Shown here in pieces: positions 1-40,032 of a stretch of 40,032 nt of DNA. Numbering within the stretch: position 1 is the stretch's first letter; each line of letters opens with the position of its first letter. The position numbers and the translations under genes were made by a program. The stretch is from a phage, in sequence record PZ490076.1; one strand, given 5' to 3'. The notes below the pieces were generated by a model, which made no database searches, was not told the origin of the DNA, and saw only the letters and a program-made list of their open reading frames with translations.

Positions 1-127
1 GCGCTACTCATAGTGATTTCCGTTTAATACAGTCGTATATCCCATACCCTATTAGCCAGATGACCGGAGATAAGCATACCCAATGTCCAACACTCATAGT
101 TAACCTCTATCAATTTAAGTGGTAATC
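1..127. repeat. Window-end duplication: bases 1-127 are identical to 39906-40032 (assembly/circularisation overlap, not the phage terminal repeat)
   Basis: Direct comparison of the first and last 127 nt; gives a unit length of 39,905 bp. The junction falls inside the early gene region, not at T7-like genome termini. Confidence 0.9.
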
Positions 128-270
128 ACTCAGGCCACCATGTAGATGACCTGTAGTTTAACACTCAGTACCCACCTGTCAGCGTTATTGTCAGGCTATG
201 GTGATTAGCCACGTAGCAAGCCCCGCGCTTCATCATCTCGTAGCACCCATCGTAGAACGCCTGTTCACTG

Positions 271-447
271 CTATAAGTTATCTGGTACATGTTTACTGTC
301 CTCAGTGTGTAAGCTGTCATGTATGCGCTTGCGTCTCCTGTAGACCACTTTCAAGAGACGCATGGCCTCCTCGTGGTTTAACTGCCCGGTCTTGACCATA
401 ATCCGGGCGATGGTGACGTGGTGCTGGCAGAGACCATAAGTTACCAT
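271..447 (-). CDS. Hypothetical small early ORF, 57 aa
   Basis: Hand translation (MVTYGLCQHHVTIARIMVKTGQLNHEEAMRLLKVVYRRRKRIHDSLHTEDSKHVPDNL); GAGG 9 nt upstream; starts 15 nt after the kinase-like gene. Confidence 0.2.
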   Translation of the reverse strand: MVTYGLCQHHVTIARIMVKTGQLNHEEAMRLLKVVYRRRKRIHDSLHTEDSKHVPDNL

Positions 448-461
448 CTTGATGACCTCAC

Positions 462-965
462 CTATTGCAGCTTGGACACAAGGAAGAAACAGTCAACCAG
501 TATCAGCTTGCCATTCACAGCCCGTACATTGCGTGGGCTTATCTCAAACCGAATGTCTGACCCAAAGTTAGAGCAGGCGTCCAGCGCCATCAGCACATCC
601 ATCAGACCTTCCCTCACAGTCTCAGTCTCAGACCTGTCGTGTGCAACTTGGAATATCTCGTACCACTTGTGATACAGGTCAGCAGGCCGAGAGACTACCG
701 GAGACCGTGAGAAGCACTCGCGCAGCACCTGATAGAGTTGCCACTGGTCGTCGGCTAAATGCGCCTTGAGACCTCGCGTTGGTGGCATGTAGTCCATCTC
801 ATACGTGCCTACCTCAATCATCTTGACTTCAGGGAACAGTGGAGACTCAGGAAACCATCCCCACGCCATACACTCCTTTATCGGGTCAGAAGAGATCAGA
901 AGTACACGCTTCCCGCAATCCTTCAGGTAGCACTTAGTGAACGCGCCTTTGCCTATCAGTTTCAT
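462..965 (-). CDS. Early protein, protein-kinase-like (resembles the N-terminal kinase part of T7 gp0.7), 167 aa; first gene after the host-type early promoters
   Basis: Gly-rich loop-like IGKGAF near the N-terminus and a catalytic/activation-loop-like segment DIRFEISPRNVRAVNGKLILVDCF, comparable to T7 gp0.7 (GNGHFS ... [21 protein letters not shown]); AAAGGA RBS. Confidence 0.5.
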   Translation of the reverse strand: MKLIGKGAFTKCYLKDCGKRVLLISSDPIKECMAWGWFPESPLFPEVKMIEVGTYEMDYMPPTRGLKAHLADDQWQLYQVLRECFSRSPVVSRPADLYHKWYEIFQVAHDRSETETVREGLMDVLMALDACSNFGSDIRFEISPRNVRAVNGKLILVDCFFLVSKLQ

Positions 966-2431: not shown

Positions 2432-4219
2432 CTAGTGGAACGTAACGTAGGACCCTAGTCCAAGCTCGTCGTCCGTATCGTGAGTTACCCGGACCCCATT
2501 GTCCCAGAACTCAGTGTGGATGGACTCGAAGCCTTTCCGTGGGTTCTCCATCTGTTCTTCCAGCCACTCCTCAGTGACTTCACGTTCGCCTTTGTTGGCA
2601 TCCTTCGCCATAGACTCAACGAAGAACTGTACACCGATAGCCAGCGCATCAAGTCGGTCATCGTGTGCCAATGCTCCACGTTCACGAGAGATACGTGTCA
2701 TCTGGTAGAAGAGAGAGTAGATAGGATTACGAACACCATCCTTATCAGAGGCAGACTGGTAATCTTGGACGATAGCAGCAGCGTTGATGATAAGTCGGTG
2801 AGACCCCATGATAGGCTCCAGAACGTCACAGATGCGGAGCTCCTTCTGACCCTTACTCTTCACTTCAGTTACAGCAGCAGGATGAATACGGGAAGCTACA
2901 GGCTTGAATAGCTCAAGGTACATCCCATCACCGAAGTTACCCTCAATGACGTATTCGTTGACCTTCCACTTACGACCAATCTTAGCTAAGGCTTCCAGAG
3001 TAGAGTCTTCATAGCCACCTCGCATACCGCCAACTTCCATAGCGAAGATGTAGCCGTTTAGCTGATACAGTACCGCATAACCAGTTTCATCCTTACCACG
3101 ACCACTAGGGTCAATGACTAGAATCTTCTGGGTGTACGAACTGAAGGCAGAACCTACAGTCTGATACGTGTGGTATGAGTCACCCATGAGTCCAACGTTA
3201 GGAACGTCCTCACGCTTGTTCTGAGGGTTAGGAAGCCATTGGTATACCATTGGGCTAGACGCTGGGTCCAAGTCGGCTACGATAAGGTCACGGAGCTTCA
3301 GAGGGTACTTCTCGGCATCACTCAGGTTAGGGTTAAGCATGAACTGTAGAGCGAAGCCAGCTTTACCATAGGACAGCTCACGTTCCTTCAGGTCCGTATC
3401 ATCGAATCGTACCTCATCGGTCGGACGCCAGTAGAAGGACTCAGGGTCCTCTTCCAGTTCTGCCTGAAGCATAGGAGCCAGACGGTCGCCGTAAGACTGC
3501 CAGTCCTTCTTATCGCGTGGGTAGCGAGCGGGCCAGATGGTAGTGGTGTATCCACGGCCTTCCAGCTCACGATACAAGGTCATCTCGTTCTGAGGAGTAC
3601 CTAGATAGATGATTGTACCTCCCGGCTTCAGGATAGCGTCGAACTCTTTTACAAGCTCTGACAGACGGTCTCGTGCAGCCTGAGTCGCTGAGTTGTTAGG
3701 AACCTCAACGTCATCGGCAATCAGGATGTCAGCACGACTACCAGTCAACTGACCAGTGATACCAACGGACTTAACCGAAGGTGAGTGGTCTGGCTTGGCT
3801 GGTCCAACGTCGAAGCTGATAACCGCATCTCGCTGCCCCTGCTTAGGTTTGAGTTCCTGAAGCTGAGGCATGAGGTCGATGATTCGCTTGATGAAGATGG
3901 AGTTCGCATCGGCTCGTTCCTTTGAGGCCGACACAATCATGAACTTCAAGTCTGGGTTGTTCCATAGTTTCCAGACCACGAAACCACAGGTCAGAAACGA
4001 CTTACCAATACCACGGAAAGCCTGAAGGATGAAGCGGCGATTATCCCCAGCAGCCAGCTTCTTACACATATCTATCTGGCAGCGGGTTGGAACCGGAAGG
4101 CTAAGAGCTTTCCAGAGAACGAAGATGAAGAACACGAAGTCCTCTTTCATCCTTTTTGTCACGGCCTCATTACGCTCTTGCGGCGTTAACTGCATCAATT
4201 GCCTCCTGTTCAGTATCAA
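2432..4219 (-). CDS. Terminase large subunit (T7 gp19 homolog), 595 aa
   Basis: Translation aligns with T7 gp19 from [18 protein letters not shown] onward ([53 protein letters not shown]). Confidence 0.97.
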
Positions 4220-4556
4220 ATCGACCGAGCCAGCGAGGTTGTATAGCCTTCCACTTCCCGGTCTGTTTACAATAAGACACGCCTTTCGGCAGGTCCCTGT
4301 TCCTGTTGTTTTCAGCCTTGGTCACAGCCCGAAGGTTCTCAATCCTGTTGTCTGTCCGGTTGCGGTTGATGTGGTCAATCACAAGGTCTGATTCAAGGGC
4401 GAACTCAGGGTTGTGCAGCTTGTAGATTAGACGGTGTACGAGATACTTACGGTAGTTGACCGTAGTCCTAAGATAACCGTGGTTGTCCATTGAGCCGACT
4501 TCACGTCCCTTCCTGAACAACTTACCGTCTGAATACGCAAAGTCTGTCAACATCAT
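4170..4556 (-). CDS. Free-standing HNH homing endonuclease, 128 aa, between Rz and terminase
   Basis: HNH motif in translation ([19 protein letters not shown]...[26 protein letters not shown]); start overlaps the Rz stop (ATGA); no counterpart at this position in T7. Confidence 0.85.
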
Positions 4557-4999
4557 TGCTCCTTCTCTTGCTGTAAGGCTCTCACAGTGTCTTGAAGGGC
4601 CTTAATCCACTTGTCTCCTTTCACTCCGATGGCGATAAGACGTTTAGCATCTCGTTCGTCAAGTTCGGCGTAACCATCAATGAAGCATCGACCGTCACTT
4701 TGCGTGGTTCCACTCGTAGGTTTGACTCGGACGAGCAGCCGCTTATTGTCAGACTTAAGGTCAGTAATAATCCTATCAGTGCTGCCTTCCAGCTCGGACA
4801 TTTCGTCCTGAAACCGTTTGGACACTTTGTTGACTTCAGCTTGGACAGCAAGCCTTGTATCTTCCGATGCCTTAAGATTCGAGGTGTATTCTGCATTGAC
4901 CTTAGCCTCCCACTTGTTGTTAGCGGTGTGGTAGCCACCAGCAAACATCACTGCTGCAAGTAGCCACGGAGCCGCTCTCTTAAATTTTTGAAATACCAT
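4553..4999 (-). CDS. Rz-like i-spanin (T7 gp18.5 homolog), 148 aa
   Basis: N-terminal transmembrane segment (WLLAAVMFAGGY) and strong similarity to T7 gp18.5 (EGSTDRIITDLKSDNKRLLVRVK..DERDAKRLIA..GDKWIKALQDT). Confidence 0.85.
   Translation of the reverse strand: MVFQKFKRAAPWLLAAVMFAGGYHTANNKWEAKVNAEYTSNLKASEDTRLAVQAEVNKVSKRFQDEMSELEGSTDRIITDLKSDNKRLLVRVKPTSGTTQSDGRCFIDGYAELDERDAKRLIAIGVKGDKWIKALQDTVRALQQEKEQ
4621..4896 (-). CDS. Rz1-like o-spanin lipoprotein embedded in the +1 frame of Rz (T7 gp18.7 homolog), about 91 aa from the internal Met
   Basis: Lipobox LTISGC and C-terminus similar to T7 gp18.7 (WKAALIGLLLTLSLTISGCSSES...SLMVTPNLTNEMLNV). Start codon uncertain. Confidence 0.7.
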   Translation of the reverse strand: MQNTPRILRHRKIQGLLSKLKSTKCPNGFRTKCPSWKAALIGLLLTLSLTISGCSSESNLRVEPRKVTVDASLMVTPNLTNEMLNVLSPSE

Positions 5000-5381
5000 A
5001 TGTCTCCTTTAGCATTCTGCTATGAGTTGACTTAGCCCATTCCACGACTTCCTTCAGATTCTTAGTAGGAGCATGAGTTTCTTTCTTACCTCCCATCCTA
5101 ATGTCACCATAGTACATAGTTACACCTTGACGTTTAGCAAACCTAGAGTATACGCCTTTAGGTAGTTCCCTAGAGGATACAGTGTTAGCCTTGTTTGCGC
5201 CTTTAGGTATGCACCTAAGGTTTGACAGTTCGTTATTCATAGGATTCCTGTCAATGTGGTCTATGACGTAGCCATCTGGGATAGGACCGTAGGCTTCCTC
5301 CCATAGTAATCTATGAACCCCATGAACCTTACCATTGCGAGTAACCTTCCAGTACCCACCACTTATGTAAGCGTCTTCCAT
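4980..5381 (-). CDS. Free-standing HNH homing endonuclease, 133 aa, between small terminase and Rz
   Basis: HNH motif (GKVHGVHRLLWEEAYGPIPDGYVIDHIDRNPMNNELSNLRCIPKGANKAN); strong RBS AAGGAGGT 5 nt upstream of ATG. Confidence 0.85.
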   Translation of the reverse strand: MEDAYISGGYWKVTRNGKVHGVHRLLWEEAYGPIPDGYVIDHIDRNPMNNELSNLRCIPKGANKANTVSSRELPKGVYSRFAKRQGVTMYYGDIRMGGKKETHAPTKNLKEVVEWAKSTHSRMLKETYGISKI

Positions 5382-5396
5382 ATAACCTCCTTAGTG

Positions 5397-5438
5397 TTAA
5401 CCATAAAGGCCACTACCTATAGTAATGACCTTGAGTCT
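5397..5438 (-). promoter_or_regulatory. Candidate RNase III processing site (copy A of a conserved 42-bp element), upstream of the HNH gene / downstream of gp18
   Basis: Minus strand AGACTCAAGGTCAT-N-GTGGCCTTTATGGTTAA; same element occurs at 29280-29318 and 36245-36286; resembles T7 RNase III sites (..GCCCTTTATGAT..) and sits where T7 has R18.5. Confidence 0.4.
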
Positions 5439-5443
5439 AACAC

Positions 5444-5707
5444 TTATTGAACACCATACCCTGTGTCATTATCCTCAGTCGCTGAAAGTACCTTATCGTA
5501 CTCTGCGTTCAGGGCCTCCATATCAGCCAGCGTCTTCTCGTCCACAGACACCTTACTTAACACAAAGTTGTGACGAGCAAGCAGCTTCTCAATGGCGTTG
5601 TAGAGCTGAGGTGAACGCTTAGTGTCATCCCGCAAGTCTTGCAGCATAAGTCGAGCACGCTCAGTATCAAGCATCAAGAGGAACTTCTCTAAGTCCATCT
5701 GCGTCAT
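5444..5707 (-). CDS. Terminase small subunit / DNA maturation protein A (T7 gp18 homolog), 87 aa
   Basis: Similarity to T7 gp18 (FLLMLDTERARLMLQDL...RSPQLYNAIEKLLARH). Confidence 0.85.
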   Translation of the reverse strand: MTQMDLEKFLLMLDTERARLMLQDLRDDTKRSPQLYNAIEKLLARHNFVLSKVSVDEKTLADMEALNAEYDKVLSATEDNDTGYGVQ

Positions 5708-5898
5708 GTTTTACCACCTCCTTTAATCGTTTTGTAGACTAGCACACCAATCTGGACAACGGTGTACGCGATAGCTGCAACGTAGAACCATTCGTTCAGT
5801 GTAAGTCCGAAGAAGAACCGACTGGCACCATCAGCCGCAGCGGTCCCGACGATAGGAGAGGCTTTAAGGACCTCATTCTTGAAGTCTAACTCAATCAT
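5704..5898 (-). CDS. Class II holin (T7 gp17.5 homolog), 64 aa
   Basis: Similarity to T7 gp17.5 (FFFGLTLNEWFYVAAIAYTVVQIG). Confidence 0.8.
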   Translation of the reverse strand: MIELDFKNEVLKASPIVGTAAADGASRFFFGLTLNEWFYVAAIAYTVVQIGVLVYKTIKGGGKT

Positions 5899-6031
5899 AA
5901 AACCTCCAGTTTAAAGCGGGTCGTCCGTGACCCAAAGTTGTTACATACGTTGGTTAGCGTGTAGTTAGCCTCTACCTCCGCAACTTTCTAACATCTACCC
6001 CACCAACTTAATGGCAAAATGGTTTTGTTTA

Positions 6032-9000
6032 TTACTTCTGTTCAAGAGCAGAAAGTCTGGCTTCGATTCTTTCCAGTTTTCTTCTCTGATAAGCGGCTTC
6101 AGCAAAGAAAATTCCGTCAGGCCGAACACCCCACTCCTCACCCTCTTCGTGAATAACCACCTCGGTGTATACAGGTTCTTCCGTAGTGGTGACATTACCC
6201 TCCTCGTCAGTGTGTTCAATGATTTCATTGTGCGAAAATACCGTATCGGTCATCCGTGGATACTTGTCATAGCACAGAACAGCATAACGACAATTCGTAC
6301 TGTTTTCGTCCATCAGCCCATGTGCAATGAATACATCACGAATTTGCTGAGCAATAACCCCGAAGTGAATACGAGCATCATTGCCTTTCAGTTGAACAGC
6401 ATCTAACCACTGGTACATGATGTAGTGAACGTCACTCCAGGCATCAAGGAAAGCATCATCAAAAACTACCGGCTCTGTTTTCCTCTCCCCGTTAGAAGTA
6501 ACAATAGGGTTACTTCCGAGGTATGCAGTGGTGAAACGGTTTCTAGGCCCACCAAGCGCAGTGACGTTATCGTTATAAGGCTTAACATCAGCACTCTGAA
6601 ATAGATGCTCATCTCCGTTGTAAACTATTCGCCTTGAGTCGGTGTTATTTGCACCATAAAGCGTAATCTGTGCGCCAGTCGTTGCACTGGTGCCTTCACC
6701 CCCGCAAAATATGATGCGCTGCCCTGCCGGGTTATCAGTCGGTATAGATTTTCCGATAAACCCATATTCACCTTCCATTAAAACTTCAGAGCGAATGTTA
6801 CGACTGGTGCTGGCTCTAATGGTCACATGACCTAAACCCAAATCCCCTGTAAATTCCATTGGCGCAGGAACAGTGCGAATCCCATTCGTATCAAAAAACA
6901 CGGGAACAGCTCTGTTAGGTACAGCACCATACCTGAAATCCCTTGAAACACGATTGTCTGGGCCAATCTTCATTTTGTAGCAATACAAATCTGAGGGATG
7001 ACCATCTGATTTGAATGGGTCCTTCGCTGAGTTATCTCCATATGCCCATGGGTTAAAATGGTCCTCTCCACCAAACATGTAGTAGATGTAACTATCCTTC
7101 ACAACTACCGAACCAACACCTACACCTGAGTTAACTATTCCGCCCTGATAAATCTGGTCAGTGATGTTAACCCATTCAATACCATCTGCATTCCAATTGT
7201 TTACATTCAAGCGTGCATAGAAGGTGCGAGGATAAGATGCCTTGTAACGATCATCTGGTGCACCTGCTTCCCATTCATTTTCTGCACGTTCTGAACCAAA
7301 CATAATAAGGTCATCCCCTACTTTAGCAAAAGGCAATGTAGTATGATGAACATTATGTGGAAATCTCAGTGACTCCCAAGTCTGACCTATGTCTCTACTA
7401 CGATGCAAAGAGCTACCTAGTCTATCGCTCCTAGTGCCACGGGTGATGAGGTACAATACACCATCGTAATACTTGATGCAGGGTTCTGAGGCATCTGACT
7501 CATACTCTGAAGGTATCTGACGACGAACATAGTTAGCCGGATTATCGAAAGCGTTAGGGAAGTAGAATAGTCCAACTTCGCGTGGAGCTACATCACCTTG
7601 GTGATAACCCATAACAAAGCCATTGTTATCAATAGCAGAAAAGCTATGAACTTTAGTCACACGAGGAATTAAGCCAAGATCTGTCTTACGCCATGGCGAT
7701 TTATGGAATGAAGTACCCATATGCCAGTTCTTTCCAGCGTTATTCAAATCTGAGTCCTGCTGGTTAGGTGTAAGAACCGTGAAGTTGTCCTTATCTATTA
7801 CCGTTGCAACCTTCATATCACCTGATACACCTGTTACCGCAGAGTTAGAGAAGTTAACAAAGTCACCCACGAACAGCCCGTGATCAGGTACATGGATTGT
7901 TGCATATCGCTGATTTGCTGCCTTCGTAATACCACCAGTGAGATGCAGGCTACGAGACATGGGGCGATCCCACAATGCACAATTGGTTAATGCGTTCTTG
8001 GCTAAAGTACGTGTTTCAATCATGGCAAACAGACGGTTGCGACATACACCCATACTCATACAATGATAGTTCACTGTAGGGTAATCTGGATGCAGATCAG
8101 TTAACCACTCTGGAGTAGACCATGTTTGACCATCATCACCAGACTTAACCCATGATACGTGAAGACGGCTAACACCATGACGATCGCTACCCATGTAAGG
8201 TGCATATATCACATTCTCATATACGAACGCTTTATCCTGAGGCCACGCATTGTAATAAGGGGTGTCCGTTATCTTGAACAGCTCACCCTGAACAAATTCT
8301 TCAGAGACATAATAAAGAGGTTGTCCGGGAATGCGCTCATAAACGAAACGAGTGTTGATGAAGCGACTAATGTCAGGCAGGGATGTGACCTTATATGTCT
8401 TCCCATTGCCATTAAGCCTTTGTCCAACCGGTGTGTCGTTTAATGCGCTCGTTAACGCTGCTGTATCATCAGTGACACCATCCCCTTTAGCACCCCAACC
8501 ACGGACATCTTTTTCATCAAGCCAGCGTGCTCTATGTAATTCAGGGTAGAGTATTGCCCCTTCCGGGTTTGAAATCTGACTTCTTAAAGCAGCATCACCA
8601 ACACTAACCCACGCACCTAATCCAATCCCACCGGAAGTTTCAGGAGTTGAACCAGCAGGAACGTTCTTTGGAAGCGTACCATCCCAGCGGTAATAATCAC
8701 CATCCTCTTCCCATAGCAGGACCTCGCTCCATGTTGTAACGTTGTAGCCTTTCTCGAAGGAGCGACGGGTAATATAGCCAATTAGACCAGCTTCCCTGAT
8801 ACTCTCAGCGATTCGTCGTGCTTCGTCCTCGCTATCCTTAGCGTTGCCAGCAGAGCTGCTAGCAGCATCGGCATATTCCTTCGCTAAGTCAACCGTTTGG
8901 TCTCGACCTTCTTCTGCAATATGGATAGCCTGAAGCTCTGAATTGGTCAGGTCACTAGCTGTCAACACTGAGCCATTCCTGAAGTCTACCACTAAGTCAG

Positions 9001-36613: not shown

Positions 36614-39295
36614 TTAAGCGAATGCAAAGTCTGAAGACAATATGTCCTCGATATTCAGTTTACCTTTCTTCGGTAGCTCAGGCAACTTGTCGCGCTGGCT
36701 CTCGTGAAGCTGGTATTCGAACTGCTCGTAGAAGTCAAGCAGCACATCGTTGTCGCGGTAGGTCTCGACCATCGTCTCACGGACACCACGGAACAGATAT
36801 TCAGCGTCAGCCGGGATGGTCCCGAAGCTATCGTGAATCACTGCGAATGACATCACGCCATACTTGCGGTGCGTGTGGACTACAGTCTTGCGGAGGTGGC
36901 TACCATCTTGTGAGTGGACGAAGTTCGGGCTAATTCCTGACTCCTGCTTGTGTTTGTCCAGCTCTTTCTTCGTACCTCTGTTGACGGTAGGCTGAAGGTT
37001 GAATGACCCTAAGAACATCAGGTTCAGACGAGTGGTATCCTTCTTGCGGTATTCCTGCCAGACCGGGAAACCATCAGGTGTTACCCAGTGTACCGGAAGG
37101 CAAGGCTTCAGGATTTCTCCAGTCTTCTTGTCCTTCACCTCAGCAGCCAGCAGCTTGGCAGCGCCTTGAAGCCACTTCATCGCGTCAACCGCAGCAACTA
37201 CGGTCACACTCACAGCTTCCCAAATCATCTTAGCCATGAAGCGAGACGCTTGGCTAGGCTCGGTGAACATAGCGCCAGACCCTGAGTCAATCGCTGGCAT
37301 CACGATGTCCTCGTAAACTTGGTCTGCGAAGCCGTACTCTTTCGACCCGTATGCCAGAGTCATGACTGAACGCTTAGTGACCTTACGTGACATCCCGTAT
37401 GTCAGCCACTGACGGGCCAGCTCTCGTGTCCCCAGCTTGATACGTTCGGTAATCTCACCAGTTTTCTTGTCCTCGTGAGTGACCATCTCGTTGTCAGTAC
37501 CGTTAATCAGCAGGACTTTAAGCTCCTCCTCAATGCGGTCAGACACAATGCGGTAGATGTCTTGTACCATACCGGATGGCGTCAGGTTTACTGCATGCCC
37601 ACCGATGTGGTCACGAAGCATCGCACTGAAGTGCTGAATACCAGAGCAGGACCCATCGAACGCTATCGGCAGCGAGCAGGAGTAAGACAGGCCGTGGTGC
37701 ATTACGCCAGCATACTCGAAGCAGAACGCGAGGAAACAGAACGGAGAGTCTAACTTGCCCCACCACTCAATACTATCCATCGGTGCCTTAGCAGCAGCCA
37801 TGATGTTTTCGTGGTTGTCTTCCACCCACTTGATGCGCTCCTCGAAGGTGACTTTATCGACACCCGCGCAGTTTGCACCGTGGACCTTCAGCCATTTGAA
37901 ACCGTCAGCACCAATAGGCTTGCCGACTGCCAGAGTCAGGAGACCCTTCTGCATGTCGTTACCCTGAGGGTTGAACATCGGCACAGCGTAGACGCGCCCT
38001 CGCCAATCCATGTTGTACGGGAACCAGATGGCCTTGAACTGAGAGAACTTGTTAGCTTGGTTAACGATAAAGCTCAGTGACAATCTGCGCGACTGTCTGG
38101 CCTTCTCGCGGCGATAGATACCAGCAGCAGCCTTCTTCCATGCCTTGAGTTCCTCCTCGGTCTCACCAGCATAGTCCTCAGGCTTCAGCGGCTCCATCTG
38201 AGGGATGTCATCAATAGGTGTGTTGTTCAGCTTCTCGACCATGTTCACCACGTCCAATACCTTCTTGTTCACTTTCCAAGGTGTATTCTGGATGATATTC
38301 ACAGCGTCATAGACTTCAGGCATGTATACGTCTTCATAACGTGCTACCGCAGACTTAGACCCTAAGCGAATCAATGGTAACGGTCTGCGACCTTTGGCCC
38401 AGTACCCACCGCCTACGACACCAGTCCACGGCTTAGGTGGAACGACGCAAGGCTGGTAGACTGGAGCGATACCCGCAAGGCTGAATCCTCGTTGTGCCAT
38501 CTTCTTGACCCAGAAGTCTGACAGGTGGACCATCTCTACGTCAGTCGCTGCATTGCCAGCACCGTACCGCTTAAGCTCGACCAGTTGTGTTGACTGGATG
38601 ACAATCTCGAGCATCTTGATGCCAACGTGGACAGCCTCTGTAGGACTCCAAGTCCCCCACGCATCTTCCAGTTGACCTTGCTCCAGCATGGACGCCTCGA
38701 CCGCTTGCATGTAGGCTTTCTTGTAGGACGCCCCGGCCCGCTTATTCAGGTTATCAGCTATCGCCTTCTTGAAGTGCTCTTTCTCTTTGTCACGGATGCG
38801 ACCGAAGCGGATTTCGTCCTCAAGTGTGCGACCTATCGCGGAGGCCATAGGTGTAATTGGTATCCCTTCGGGCTTGACCAGCTTGGAGAGTATGACCTTC
38901 AGTATGATAACCGCAGCGGACTCACAGGAGATGCGCATAGAGCGGTCCTTGACGGCCTTCTCTTCAGTGCTCAACATGGTGAACGCTACGCTAGGACGAG
39001 AGGTTGACAGCTTTCCGTCTGGACCTTCATGCCACTCCCTGACGGCTTGCGCAATCTTAGGGACCAGAGTCTGCATCAAAGGCTTGGCGACCTGATTGTC
39101 TGCCAGTTCCCCGCGCTCAGTCTGTCGCTCAAGGTTTTTGATGAAACGTCGCTCGCCTTCAGTGTATGCCTCATGCTCAAGCTGAAGCTGTTTAACTGCA
39201 AGGTCTTGCCCGTAGTGGTCGGCCAGCAGGTTAAACGGCTCAATGGCGTTCGACACATCAGAGAAGTCGTGTTTGTCAATAGAGATGACGCTCAT
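36614..39295 (-). CDS. Single-subunit DNA-dependent RNA polymerase (T7 gene 1 homolog), 893 aa
   Basis: Collinear with T7 RNAP including C-terminus ...DILSSDFAFA (T7 ...DILESDFAFA), RGRVYAVPMFNPQGNDM, SGIQHFSAMLRD, PNFVHSQDGSHLRKT, LIHDSFGT. Confidence 0.98.
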   Translation of the reverse strand: MSVISIDKHDFSDVSNAIEPFNLLADHYGQDLAVKQLQLEHEAYTEGERRFIKNLERQTERGELADNQVAKPLMQTLVPKIAQAVREWHEGPDGKLSTSRPSVAFTMLSTEEKAVKDRSMRISCESAAVIILKVILSKLVKPEGIPITPMASAIGRTLEDEIRFGRIRDKEKEHFKKAIADNLNKRAGASYKKAYMQAVEASMLEQGQLEDAWGTWSPTEAVHVGIKMLEIVIQSTQLVELKRYGAGNAATDVEMVHLSDFWVKKMAQRGFSLAGIAPVYQPCVVPPKPWTGVVGGGYWAKGRRPLPLIRLGSKSAVARYEDVYMPEVYDAVNIIQNTPWKVNKKVLDVVNMVEKLNNTPIDDIPQMEPLKPEDYAGETEEELKAWKKAAAGIYRREKARQSRRLSLSFIVNQANKFSQFKAIWFPYNMDWRGRVYAVPMFNPQGNDMQKGLLTLAVGKPIGADGFKWLKVHGANCAGVDKVTFEERIKWVEDNHENIMAAAKAPMDSIEWWGKLDSPFCFLAFCFEYAGVMHHGLSYSCSLPIAFDGSCSGIQHFSAMLRDHIGGHAVNLTPSGMVQDIYRIVSDRIEEELKVLLINGTDNEMVTHEDKKTGEITERIKLGTRELARQWLTYGMSRKVTKRSVMTLAYGSKEYGFADQVYEDIVMPAIDSGSGAMFTEPSQASRFMAKMIWEAVSVTVVAAVDAMKWLQGAAKLLAAEVKDKKTGEILKPCLPVHWVTPDGFPVWQEYRKKDTTRLNLMFLGSFNLQPTVNRGTKKELDKHKQESGISPNFVHSQDGSHLRKTVVHTHRKYGVMSFAVIHDSFGTIPADAEYLFRGVRETMVETYRDNDVLLDFYEQFEYQLHESQRDKLPELPKKGKLNIEDILSSDFAFA

Positions 39296-39364
39296 ACTTA
39301 AAGTCCTTGTTATTAGTCTTTCACTTAAAGTCTCTTTGGTCTTTCACTTGGAGTCTTAGACCTT

Positions 39365-39387
39365 GAGTCCTATAGTGATAGTTAAGT
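39365..39387 (-). promoter_or_regulatory. Phage RNAP promoter located directly upstream of the RNAP gene
   Basis: Minus strand GACTTAACTATCACTATAGGACTCAAGG, 70 nt upstream of the RNAP start codon. Confidence 0.6.
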
Positions 39388-39392
39388 CATAA

Positions 39393-39719
39393 TTACTTGC
39401 ATATCAGTGGGTTAGCGTGAAGATGACTGAAGTCACCGTGAGTCGTGTGCTTGATGGTTGACCGTTGGTCTATCGCCTTCCAGCCTGAGACTAAAAGTTT
39501 ACCATCGTCAGTGATCGGTCGTCCGCCATACGCCAGACACATCAGTTCGGACTTATGGCCCTCTGCCCGGAGTCGTGCCTGTAGTACACGGTCCCGCTCC
39601 TGCTGTTGACGTGCGGCGTGACTTGACGTTCCGTGACGATACCCGGTAGCCAGTAGGCTTAACATATTCATTTCTGCGTCCATAGAGTGTACCAAATTAA
39701 TCCCGTATGACTTGTTCAT
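39393..39719 (-). CDS. Hypothetical early protein, 108 aa from MNKSYG (the track gives a longer 125-aa form starting at 39770)
   Basis: ORF between the kinase-like gene and the RNAP gene; TAATG coupling with the upstream 65-aa ORF; no recognised homolog. Confidence 0.4.
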   Translation of the reverse strand: MNKSYGINLVHSMDAEMNMLSLLATGYRHGTSSHAARQQQERDRVLQARLRAEGHKSELMCLAYGGRPITDDGKLLVSGWKAIDQRSTIKHTTHGDFSHLHANPLICK

Positions 39720-39916
39720 TACAGTTTGCTCCCAAGAGTTGCTATATCCCAGACGTTCGCGAGGTTGCATATGAATCGTCCGTTAGGCTGACGTACAGTC
39801 CAGCGGACCATACGTACATAGTTGAATTTATAGACTTTACGCGCTTTGTTGATGTCTCTCACCAGCACGTAGGCGATAAGTCCATAGCCTATGGCTATCA
39901 ATATTGCGCTACTCAT
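39719..39916 (-). CDS. Hypothetical small early protein with a hydrophobic N-terminus, 65 aa
   Basis: ORF track; N-terminus MSSAILIAIGYGLIAYVLV looks membrane-anchored; start lies in the window-end overlap region. Confidence 0.35.
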   Translation of the reverse strand: MSSAILIAIGYGLIAYVLVRDINKARKVYKFNYVRMVRWTVRQPNGRFICNLANVWDIATLGSKL

Positions 39917-40032
39917 AGTGATTTCCGTTTAATACAGTCGTATATCCCATACCCTATTAGCCAGATGACCGGAGATAAGCATACCCAATGTCCAACACTC
40001 ATAGTTAACCTCTATCAATTTAAGTGGTAATC

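What the first reader, a model, noticed from the sequence alone, without database searches (positions are those of the whole stretch)
39393..39916. Unannotatable early ORFs between the kinase-like gene and the RNAP gene (candidate host-takeover or anti-defence functions)
A 65-aa ORF with a hydrophobic N-terminus and a translationally coupled (TAATG) 108-aa ORF occupy the region where T7-group phages carry fast-evolving early accessory genes. Neither resembles any T7 early protein I can recall. Two further tiny coupled ORFs (29 and 57 codons) lie in the 12-461 intergenic stretch. Early accessory genes of this kind are where anti-restriction and other counter-defence functions are usually found, but nothing in the sequence identifies their function.
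Basis: inference. Interest (0 to 1): 0.45.

Follow-up and report, generated by a model that had tools for sequence, protein, structure and literature searches.

The report
Conserved unknown early genes before RNAP
Two small overlapping genes just upstream of the RNA polymerase gene of this K1F-like (T7-family) phage are real, are kept in essentially every phage of the genus and are made early in infection, but no sequence or structure comparison reveals what they do.

Summary
On the minus strand, a 65-aa ORF (39916..39719) and a 108-aa ORF (39719..39393) overlap by TAATG directly upstream of the phage RNA polymerase gene. A 29-aa membrane ORF (40002..39913) is joined to the 65-aa ORF by an ATGA overlap.

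The window is a whole, circularly permuted Kayfunavirus (K1F-like) genome. All three ORFs are under purifying selection (pN/pS 0.20-0.37; other frames 0.85-2.2). They lie upstream of the first phage-type promoter, so host RNA polymerase should transcribe them.

They are not variable accessory genes. The 108-aa and 65-aa genes occur in 224 and 217 phage records, against about 220 records with this polymerase type.

The 65-aa protein is the T3/T7M-type gp0.6, a membrane-anchored protein of unknown function. The 108-aa protein belongs to the uncharacterised "gp0.38"/PHROG 7066 family. It has a small helical core and an invariant, unstructured C-terminal motif TTxGDF(S/T)HL. It has no Pfam, PDB or fold match and no detectable relation to T7 gp0.7.

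The 58-aa ORF nearby is a T7 gp0.4 homologue. The "kinase-like" gene is a mini gp0.7-type kinase fold.

Function remains inferred. A conserved host-takeover role is most likely, and counter-defence is not excluded.

The parts
39913..40002 (-). 29-aa single-pass membrane peptide (MSVGHWVCLSPVIWLIGYGIYDCIKRKSL). SD GAGG at 40012..40009. Its stop overlaps the next start (ATGA, 39916..39913). The same ORF appears at 8..97 because the window ends overlap.
   Evidence: Conserved in 15 related loci with pN/pS 0.25 and variable sites 13/8/28. Annotated as a transmembrane protein in phage EPr2.
39719..39916 (-). 65-aa protein with an N-terminal transmembrane helix and a basic C-terminal domain (pI 10.4). 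T3/T7M-type gp0.6 family, PHROG 2385, called 'gene 0.6' in K1F.
   Evidence: BLASTP against T7M gp0.6: 40% identity over 60 aa, E 8e-10. tblastn hits in Przondovirus, Ningirsuvirus and Unyawovirus. pN/pS 0.37. Found in 217 phage records.
39393..39719 (-). 108-aa soluble basic protein (pI 9.3) of the 'gp0.38' / PHROG 7066 family. It has a variable N-terminal module (residues 1-26), a helical core (helices 33-52, 56-63, 71-88) and an unstructured tail (89-108) carrying the invariant motif T92-T-x-G95-D96-F97-S-H-L100.
39717..39733 (-). Coupling junction GGGAGCAAACTGTAATG: Shine-Dalgarno sequence, stop of the 65-aa gene and start of the 108-aa gene.
   Evidence: Identical or nearly so in 13 of 14 relatives. 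The overlapping stop-start TGTAATG, with a Shine-Dalgarno sequence upstream, is also kept in the distant relatives L039-L041.
39365..39387 (-). Phage-RNA-polymerase promoter (core ACTATCACTATAGG at 39382..39369), between the stop of the 108-aa gene and gene 1.
   Evidence: 11 copies in the window, all on the minus strand, against 0.29 expected. Conserved in 22 relatives. Promoter-like sequences occupy the same place in L040 and L041.
36614..39295 (-). Gene 1, the single-subunit phage RNA polymerase (893 aa). It marks the downstream boundary of the early block.
462..965 (-). 167-aa mini kinase-fold protein (PHROG 11084). It occupies the slot that holds Ocr in K1F, EPr2 and Peacock.
   Evidence: hhalign against gp0.7 kinases: probability 86%, E 4.9e-6, 139 columns, with the Gly loop IGKGxF and the loop FEISPRN...D.FF invariant. 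Patchy distribution across 84 records in unrelated phage groups.
271..447 (-). 58-aa homologue of T7 gp0.4, which in T7 is the FtsZ inhibitor.
   Evidence: BLASTP against T7 gp0.4: 39% identity over 41 aa, E 3e-6. PHROG 5058/7202 cross-hits. The corresponding early-region genes of L040 and L041 carry PF26807 Phage_T7_GP04.
165..320 (-). Small conserved ORF (PHROG 33188). Relatives match from residue 9-11 onward, so the real product is probably about 41 aa (165..290).

Best explanation
The interval holds the last three genes of the host-transcribed early (class I) operon of a Kayfunavirus. They are a 29-aa membrane peptide, a 65-aa membrane-anchored protein and a 108-aa soluble protein, translated as one coupled unit (ATGA, then TAATG) just before the first phage promoter and the polymerase gene.

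Shown:
- All three are real genes under purifying selection.
- The 65-aa protein is the T3-type gp0.6.
- The 108-aa protein belongs to a family confined to Kayfunavirus and close relatives. It is always the gene directly upstream of gene 1 and nearly always follows the 65-aa gene.
- The one strictly invariant feature of that family is a C-terminal peptide, TTxGDF(S/T)HL, which the structure prediction leaves unfolded.

Inferred: the pair are host-takeover factors, not strain-specific anti-defence genes. The 65-aa protein would sit in the inner membrane with its basic domain in the cytoplasm. The 108-aa protein would use its helical core as a scaffold and its conserved tail as a docking peptide for a host protein conserved across Enterobacteriaceae. 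The pair may correspond to the T3 gp0.6-gp0.65 pair. Because most genomes of the genus lack the gp0.7 kinase/shut-off protein, it may cover part of what gp0.7's C-terminal domain does in T7. The target and the effect are not known.
For: Real genes:
- Codon-position pattern and pN/pS of 0.20, 0.37 and 0.25, against 0.85-2.2 in the off-frames of the two larger genes.
- Conserved SD and coupling junction.

Early class:
- No phage promoter (11 copies, 0.29 expected) lies between the genome's left end and 39382.
- The first one sits between the 108-aa gene and gene 1.

Core status:
- 224 and 217 records against about 220 with this polymerase type.
- Hosts span Escherichia, Salmonella, Citrobacter, Enterobacter, Cronobacter and Klebsiella.
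- The order 65-aa gene, TAATG, 108-aa gene, promoter, polymerase is kept even where the 108-aa protein is only 36-45% identical.

65-aa protein = T3 gp0.6:
- BLASTP E 8e-10, same length, same TM-plus-basic architecture.

Tail motif:
- The only invariant columns across 39 sequences down to 32% identity are T92, G95, D96, F97 and L100.
- pLDDT is 49-55 there, against 78-91 in the core.
- In the most distant phage hits only the C-terminal 34-40 residues still match (H109, H110).

gp0.65 link:
- hhalign P 0.0029 on the ..hhxYG(G/A).. helix-loop.
- Score 20.9 against a shuffle mean of 10.0 (sd 2.3), reached by 1 of 200 shuffles.
- gp0.65 is likewise the gene overlapping the end of gp0.6.

Kinase context:
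- Where Kayfunavirus kinases are present they are 243-244 aa and lack the C-terminal shut-off domain.
Against: - No direct evidence of function. There is no homology or fold match to any characterised protein.
- The gp0.65 link is weak, and I first saw it by eye before testing it. gp0.65 itself has no known function.
- Profile comparison with gp0.7, including its shut-off domain, is negative, so 'replaces gp0.7 shut-off' rests on position only.
- Over larger distances the 108-aa protein diverges much faster than the polymerase and the 65-aa protein, and its N-terminus is swapped among at least four forms. That pattern is also typical of arms-race genes.
- The 65-aa gene was not detected in CR44b (L028) and is truncated in ZG49 (L018), so the pair is not obligatory.
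- The structure model is only moderate (mean pLDDT 72).
Confidence: 0.45

Rival explanations
1. Counter-defence. One or both proteins inhibit a host immune system such as restriction, abortive infection or a membrane-associated defence complex. The conserved tail of the 108-aa protein, or the membrane-anchored 65-aa protein, would block a defence protein.
For: - Early expression next to the slot that carries Ocr, a methyltransferase or a kinase in relatives.
- gp0.7-type early proteins do act against defence: JSS1_004 acts against DndFGH (PMC12345140).
- The 108-aa protein diverges fast relative to its neighbours (36-45% against 80-85% for the polymerase).
- Its N-terminal modules are exchanged, and a mosaic boundary lies inside the gene.
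Against: - Near-universal presence and fixed position in the genus, unlike the patchy Ocr/167-aa slot.
- Strong purifying selection on the core and tail across phages of six host genera.
- No match to any catalogued family, although PADLOC holds defence models, not anti-defence models, so this is a weak test.
- A target that is itself universal, such as RecBCD or Lon, would reconcile both views.
Confidence: 0.28
2. Phage-directed regulator. The 108-aa protein acts on the phage's own programme, for example by modulating the polymerase, the switch from host to phage transcription, or genome entry. It would not act on a host target.
For: - Always the gene immediately upstream of the promoter and gene 1.
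- Its 3' half, the promoter and gene 1 form one low-divergence block: third-position entropy 0.2-0.43 against 0.98 in its 5' part, and 0.3-0.7 in gene 1.
- It is basic (pI 9.3).
Against: - No DNA-binding or other recognisable fold.
- The linkage may be purely positional.
- Divergence of the 108-aa protein does not track that of the polymerase: L024 and L029 have polymerase 77% with the 108-aa protein 87-89%, while L037 has polymerase 92% with the 108-aa protein 56%.
Confidence: 0.12
3. Remnant of gp0.7. The 108-aa ORF would be a leftover piece of a T7-type gp0.7, either the kinase N-lobe (GDFSHL..ICK against GHFSAA..VIK) or the shut-off domain (RQQQERDR.. and GDFSHL against RQKEIDR.. and GDFKAL).
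For: - Same genome position as gp0.7.
- Two short look-alike stretches in pairwise BLASTP (E 0.16 and 0.24).
Against: - Profile-profile comparison of 39 family members with 11 gp0.7 proteins gives probability 0.1%, E 0.55.
- The look-alike residues are not conserved within the gp0.7 family.
- A gp0.7-type kinase and a homologue of the 108-aa protein coexist in Dev2 and CHRF_30116.2.
Confidence: 0.03
4. Chance ORFs or mis-called frame: the real feature would be non-coding or on the plus strand.
For: Plus-strand ORFs of 54 and 107 aa overlap the interval.
Against: - The variable-site pattern peaks at the third codon position of the minus-strand frames. The 107-aa plus-strand ORF would put the most variable sites at its first codon position (inferred from the frame registers).
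- Off-frames are full of stops in relatives.
- No Rfam match reaches its threshold (best E 0.57, far below gathering score).
Confidence: 0.01

Closest known systems
T3/T7M gp0.6 (65 aa, PHROG 2385), an early membrane-anchored protein of unknown function
   Same: The 65-aa ORF has the same length, an N-terminal TM helix followed by RD.xK, and the conserved (R/P)(W/F)TVR.PNGRF..N...AT block. It shows 40% identity at E 8e-10. It is early, lies upstream of gene 1, and its end overlaps the next small gene.
   Different: The C-terminal end differs (..VWDIATLGSKL against ..VFYIATH). In T3-like phages the gp0.7 kinase lies between this pair and gene 1. It is not related to T7 gp0.6A, the MreB inhibitor (hhalign 0.3%).
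'gp0.38' of EcoDS1, CR8 and Dev2 (PHROG 7066), uncharacterised
   Same: The 108-aa ORF is a member: PHROG E 8.6e-46 and Foldseek/BFVD hits only to this family. The position directly upstream of gene 1 is the same.
   Different: The members differ only in the N-terminal module: 83, 86, 108, 130 and 139-aa forms. K1F's own record leaves the gene unannotated.
T3/T7M gp0.65 and the 77-aa Przondovirus homologue
   Same: It is the gene that overlaps the end of gp0.6. It is small, basic and predicted helical, and shares the ..hhxYG(G/A)xxxx(K/R)(L/I)L.. helix-loop-helix motif. hhalign P 0.0029, beaten by 1 of 200 shuffles.
   Different: Similarity covers about 16 confident columns only. gp0.65 lacks the TTxGDFSHL tail. 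Homology is not established, and its function is also unknown.
T7 gp0.7 (protein kinase plus C-terminal host shut-off domain)
   Same: Occupies the position just upstream of gene 1. It is an early, host-directed protein.
   Different: No detectable sequence relation. The gp0.7-like fold in this genome is instead the 167-aa ORF at 462..965.

Membership tests
T3-type gp0.6 (for the 65-aa ORF) | Significant sequence similarity over most of the length | tested here: met
   BLASTP against T7M gp0.6: 24/60 identical, E 8e-10. tblastn hits in four other Studiervirinae genera.
T3-type gp0.6 (for the 65-aa ORF) | N-terminal transmembrane helix followed by a basic cytoplasmic segment, about 65 aa in all | tested here: met
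   KD mean 2.29 for residues 3-19, then RDINKARK; pI 10.4. Alignment A4.
T3-type gp0.6 (for the 65-aa ORF) | Early-region position, overlapping the next small gene | tested here: met
gp0.38 / PHROG 7066 (for the 108-aa ORF) | Match to the family profile and to named members | tested here: met
   PHROG 7066 E 8.6e-46. BFVD hits to EcoDS1 Gp0.38 and the CR8 protein. 143 homologues.
gp0.38 / PHROG 7066 (for the 108-aa ORF) | Located immediately upstream of gene 1 | tested here: met
   All 30 related loci examined.
T3-type gp0.65 (for the 108-aa ORF) | Profile-level sequence similarity | tested here: inconclusive
   hhalign probability 10.7%, P 0.0029. 1 of 200 column shuffles reaches the score.
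T7 gp0.7 kinase / shut-off protein (for the 108-aa ORF) | Similarity to the kinase domain or the C-terminal shut-off domain | tested here: not met
   hhalign A2 against A3: probability 0.1%, E 0.55. Single-sequence comparison E 0.4.
T7 gp0.6 (MreB inhibitor) (for the 65-aa ORF) | Sequence similarity to gp0.6A | tested here: not met
   BLASTP E 0.47. hhalign probability 0.3%. The two fall in different PHROGs.
Ocr and other catalogued anti-restriction or defence-related families | Profile match | tested here: not met
   No Pfam, NCBIfam or PADLOC hit for either ORF. No dedicated anti-defence profile library was available.
T7 gp0.4 (FtsZ inhibitor) (for the 58-aa ORF 271..447) | Sequence similarity and early position after the first early gene | tested here: met
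   BLASTP E 3e-6. PHROG cross-hits. FtsZ binding itself was not tested.
gp0.7-type protein kinase fold (for the 167-aa ORF 462..965) | Gly-rich loop, catalytic loop and metal-binding Asp aligned with gp0.7 kinases | tested here: met
   hhalign probability 86%, E 4.9e-6 over 139 columns. The position of the catalytic Asp is an invariant Glu (FEISPRN), so activity is untested.

The most novel reading that the evidence does not exclude
The 108-aa protein would be a new kind of early host-targeting factor. A small helical scaffold with exchangeable N-terminal modules would present an invariant, intrinsically unfolded C-terminal peptide (TTxGDF(S/T)HL) that plugs into a conserved enterobacterial protein. 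It might be delivered to the membrane by its co-translated partner, the gp0.6-type anchor. In this kinase-poor genus it would do the host shut-off or immunity-blocking job that gp0.7 does in T7.
Probability: 0.15. Interest if true: 0.6.

Novelty: new member of a known kind. Interest (0 to 1): 0.3.

Why it matters
K1F-like phages are used for therapy work and phage engineering against K1 E. coli and Salmonella Typhi. Their early region decides how the host is taken over.

This work moves two 'hypothetical' genes out of the category of variable accessory genes and into genus-wide, selected, co-translated early genes. It gives a concrete handle for experiments, the invariant C-terminal peptide. 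It also shows that the real mobile candidates for counter-defence lie one slot upstream, in the Ocr / 167-aa mini-kinase position. No new biology is demonstrated.

Tried and rejected
1. **gp0.7 remnant idea.** Short look-alikes to the kinase Gly loop and to the shut-off domain did not survive profile-profile comparison.

2. **Structure route.**
   - The first AlphaFold model was poor (pLDDT 62.5). A deeper alignment gave 72.4.
   - Foldseek against PDB found nothing.
   - BFVD returned only the protein's own family.

3. **Sequence route.**
   - Pfam on the protein and on all 39 family members, NCBIfam, PADLOC and PDB sequences gave nothing.
   - An exhaustive profile search of 1.84 billion representatives found only 13 clusters, all the same family.

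4. **T7 gp0.6A (MreB inhibitor)** as a relative of the 65-aa protein: rejected.

5. **Searching with the gp0.7 C-terminal domain** to find stand-alone shut-off domains returned only T7-like fragments.

6. **Overlapping RNA or DNA element** as the reason for the conserved 3' end.
   - Synonymous-site diversity there (0.2-0.43) is close to that of the polymerase gene (0.3-0.7).
   - It therefore reflects a shared low-divergence block, not a special element.
   - Rfam and folding of the gene 1 leader were negative.

7. **Literature searches** for K1F or Kayfunavirus early genes, gp0.6/gp0.65 and accessory-gene screens gave no functional data on either family.

Full report
**What the window is.** The first 127 bases of the window repeat its last 127. 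All long ORFs lie on the minus strand. The interval plus its flanks is 100% identical to Escherichia phage BUCT788 and 87-97% identical to many Kayfunavirus (K1F-like, Studiervirinae) genomes. The window is therefore a whole, circularly permuted phage genome read in reverse.

The early region runs across the window junction. On the minus strand the order is:
- large terminase, 4219..2432
- genome ends
- 167-aa ORF, 965..462
- 58-aa ORF, 447..271
- small ORF, 320..165
- 29-aa ORF, 40002..39913 (also listed at 97..8)
- 65-aa ORF, 39916..39719
- 108-aa ORF, 39719..39393
- RNA polymerase gene, 39295..36614

**The observation.**
- The 29-aa ORF has a GAGG Shine-Dalgarno sequence. Its stop overlaps the 65-aa start (ATGA).
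- The 65-aa stop overlaps the 108-aa start (TAATG), with GGGAG 8 nt upstream.
- The mechanical ORF list gives a 125-aa reading from ATG 39770. That ATG is found only in this genome, and the extension contains stops in several relatives. The GGGAG..TAATG junction is conserved.

**Are they genes?** I took DNA of homologous loci from annotated phage records and 22 IMG/VR contigs.

| ORF | Variable sites by codon position | Pooled pN/pS |
|---|---|---|
| 108-aa | 25/17/64 | 0.20 (0.147 for codons 25-108) |
| 65-aa | 18/11/28 | 0.37 |
| 29-aa | 13/8/28 | 0.25 |

The two alternative frames of the 108-aa and 65-aa genes give 0.85-2.2 and are full of stops. All three ORFs are protein-coding genes under purifying selection.

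**Expression class.** The motif ACTATCACTATAGG occurs 11 times, always on the minus strand, against 0.29 expected. It resembles T7-group promoters (my own knowledge of their consensus).
- One copy lies at 39382..39369, between the stop of the 108-aa gene and the polymerase start. It is conserved in 22 relatives.
- No copy lies between the genome's left end and that site.
- The three genes should therefore be transcribed by host RNA polymerase as class I genes (inference from T7 biology), while the polymerase gene also has a promoter of its own type.
- No Rfam family and no significant RNA structure were found in the interval or in the gene 1 leader.

**Distribution.** A polymerase gene of this type (at least 80% covered) is present in about 220 phage records. 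The 108-aa protein is found in 224 records and the 65-aa protein in 217.

Hosts include Escherichia, Salmonella, Citrobacter, Enterobacter, Cronobacter and Klebsiella. In every locus examined the 108-aa homologue lies about 100 nt upstream of gene 1, and the 65-aa gene nearly always directly precedes it. Exceptions:
- An endonuclease VII-type homing endonuclease is inserted between the two genes in L021 and L029.
- The 65-aa gene was not detected in CR44b (L028) and is truncated in ZG49 (L018).

The 167-aa ORF behaves differently. It occurs in only 84 records, scattered over unrelated phage groups. Its slot holds Ocr in K1F, EPr2 and Peacock, and a methyltransferase plus kinase in CR44b-type phages. 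The two ORFs of the finding are therefore genus-core genes, not variable accessory genes.

**The 65-aa protein.**
- It has an N-terminal transmembrane helix followed by a basic segment, with pI 10.4.
- It belongs to PHROG 2385, and K1F calls it gene 0.6.
- It is homologous to T7M (T3-like) gp0.6: 40% identity, E 8e-10, both 65 aa.
- Relatives occur in Przondovirus, Ningirsuvirus and Unyawovirus.
- It is not related to T7 gp0.6A.
- I found no published function for T3-type gp0.6.

**The 108-aa protein.**
- It belongs to PHROG 7066, named gp0.38 in EcoDS1, CR8 and Dev2. K1F's record leaves it unannotated.
- A word-indexed search of 5.8 billion proteins found 143 relatives, all on phage-sized contigs.
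- An exhaustive profile search of 1.84 billion representatives found only 13 clusters.
- The family has a swappable N-terminus (83, 86, 108, 130 and 139-aa forms) and a conserved core.
- Across 39 sequences down to 32% identity the only invariant columns are T92, G95, D96, F97 and L100. These form the motif TTxGDF(S/T)HL in the C-terminal tail.
- AlphaFold2 with the deeper alignment gives pLDDT 72.4. It predicts helices 7-25, 33-52, 56-63 and 71-88, with core pLDDT 78-91 and an unstructured tail at pLDDT 49-55.
- Pfam (also scanned on all members), NCBIfam, PADLOC and PDB sequences give nothing.

**The gp0.7 lead.** The position is that of T7 gene 0.7, and pairwise BLASTP showed two short look-alikes. 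I built an alignment of 11 gp0.7 proteins from nine genera, including the 243-244-aa Kayfunavirus kinases that lack the shut-off domain.
- Profile-profile comparison gives probability 0.1%.
- The kinase and the 108-aa homologue coexist in Dev2 and CHRF_30116.2.
- The lead is rejected.

**The gp0.65 lead.** In T3-like and Przondovirus genomes the gene overlapping the end of gp0.6 is gp0.65 (55-77 aa). It shares a ..hhxYG(G/A)xxxx(K/R)(L/I)L.. segment with the core of the 108-aa protein.
- Using 18 distinct gp0.65 sequences, hhalign gives P 0.0029.
- The score is 20.9 against a mean of 10.0 (sd 2.3) in 200 column shuffles. One shuffle reaches it.
- This is suggestive of an ancestral gp0.6-gp0.65 pair but is not established. 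I noticed the motif by eye before testing it.

**Evolutionary texture.**
- Third-position entropy in the 108-aa gene drops from about 0.98 (codons 27-52) to 0.2-0.43 (codons 53-108). The latter resembles the polymerase gene at 0.3-0.7.
- A mosaic boundary therefore lies inside the gene. Its 3' half travels with the promoter and gene 1.
- In divergent relatives (L040, L041) synteny and the coupling junction are kept. The 108-aa protein is only 36-45% identical, while the 65-aa protein keeps 72-75% and the polymerase 80-85%.
- The gene is thus universal in position but comparatively fast-evolving outside its tail motif.

**Interpretation.**
- Shown: real, coupled, early, genus-wide genes; one is a gp0.6-type membrane anchor, and the other is an orphan helical protein with an invariant unfolded C-terminal peptide.
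- Inferred: host-takeover factors acting on a conserved host component, with the tail as a docking peptide. They may cover part of the role of the gp0.7 shut-off domain in a genus where most genomes lack gp0.7. I put this at about 0.45.
- Counter-defence remains a serious rival at about 0.28, because of the location, the modular N-terminus and the long-range divergence.
- A phage-directed regulatory role is possible at about 0.12.

- The 58-aa ORF is a T7 gp0.4 homologue (E 3e-6).
- The 167-aa 'kinase-like' gene aligns with gp0.7 kinases at 86% probability over 139 columns. A Glu stands where the catalytic Asp is expected.

**Verdict.** The finding is accurate as an observation and ordinary in kind: members of catalogued but uncharacterised phage protein families. 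Its main value is as a well-defined experimental target.

Noticed in passing
window 39365-39387 (-), and 10 further sites listed: A phage-polymerase-type promoter (ACTATCACTATAGG) lies directly upstream of the polymerase gene itself. It is conserved in 22 relatives, and promoter-like sequences occupy the same place in more distant ones. This suggests positive autoregulation of gene 1. I did not compare it with published K1F promoter maps.
   Followed up: partly
window 462-965 (-): The 167-aa ORF is a minimal gp0.7-type kinase fold (hhalign 86%, E 4.9e-6). It has an invariant Gly loop IGKGxF and FEISPRN..D.FF, with Glu where the catalytic Asp is expected. It sits in the Ocr slot. It also occurs patchily in Molineuxvirinae, Seuratvirus, Cellulophaga and about 99-kb Pseudomonas phages. 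It is a better candidate for a mobile counter-defence gene than the ORFs of the finding.
   Followed up: partly
window 271-447 (-): This T7 gp0.4 (FtsZ inhibitor) homologue carries a 9-residue C-terminal extension relative to K1F's 49-aa version. As a result it overlaps the next ORF (320..165) by 50 nt.
   Followed up: partly
window 1-127 and 39906-40032: The window ends are an exact 127-nt repeat, so the 29-aa ORF is listed twice. This probably reflects a circular assembly overlap, not the phage's terminal repeat, which is 179 bp in relatives.
   Followed up: partly
L021 2573-2998; L029 2576-2998: A 140-aa endonuclease VII-type protein (CxxC..LAVDHCH..GKVRGLLCxxCN), presumably a homing endonuclease, is inserted exactly between the 65-aa and 108-aa genes in some relatives. 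In L021 it is itself TAATG-coupled to the 108-aa gene.
   Followed up: partly
window 39393-39719 (-), around codon 52/53 (about 39563): Synonymous-site diversity falls about threefold inside the 108-aa gene (0.98 to about 0.35). This marks a recombination or mosaic boundary between the variable early region and the conserved promoter plus gene 1 block.
   Followed up: yes
alignment A1 columns 25-55; L039 457-987: A short module..W.YVG.DSRGR.YW.., appears as an insertion in the 130/139-aa forms of the 108-aa family. It is also at the N-terminus of distant members, and at the C-terminus of the upstream 176-aa protein in L039. It seems to move between neighbouring reading frames.
   Followed up: no
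window 39296-39368 (-): The gene 1 leader contains direct repeats (AAGTGAAAGAC twice, GACTTTAAGT twice) but no significant RNA fold (z = -0.22). Their purpose is unknown.
   Followed up: partly
L001 (BUCT788 record PV540240.1) 2520-3030, 3165-3314, 4185-6419: The closest GenBank record differs from the window in four ways. It carries about 440 extra bases with an 87-aa ORF between the small ORF and the 29-aa ORF. It annotates the 65-aa gene as a 49-aa fragment. It omits the 29-aa gene. It starts the polymerase CDS internally, giving 2235 nt in place of 2682 nt.
   Followed up: no
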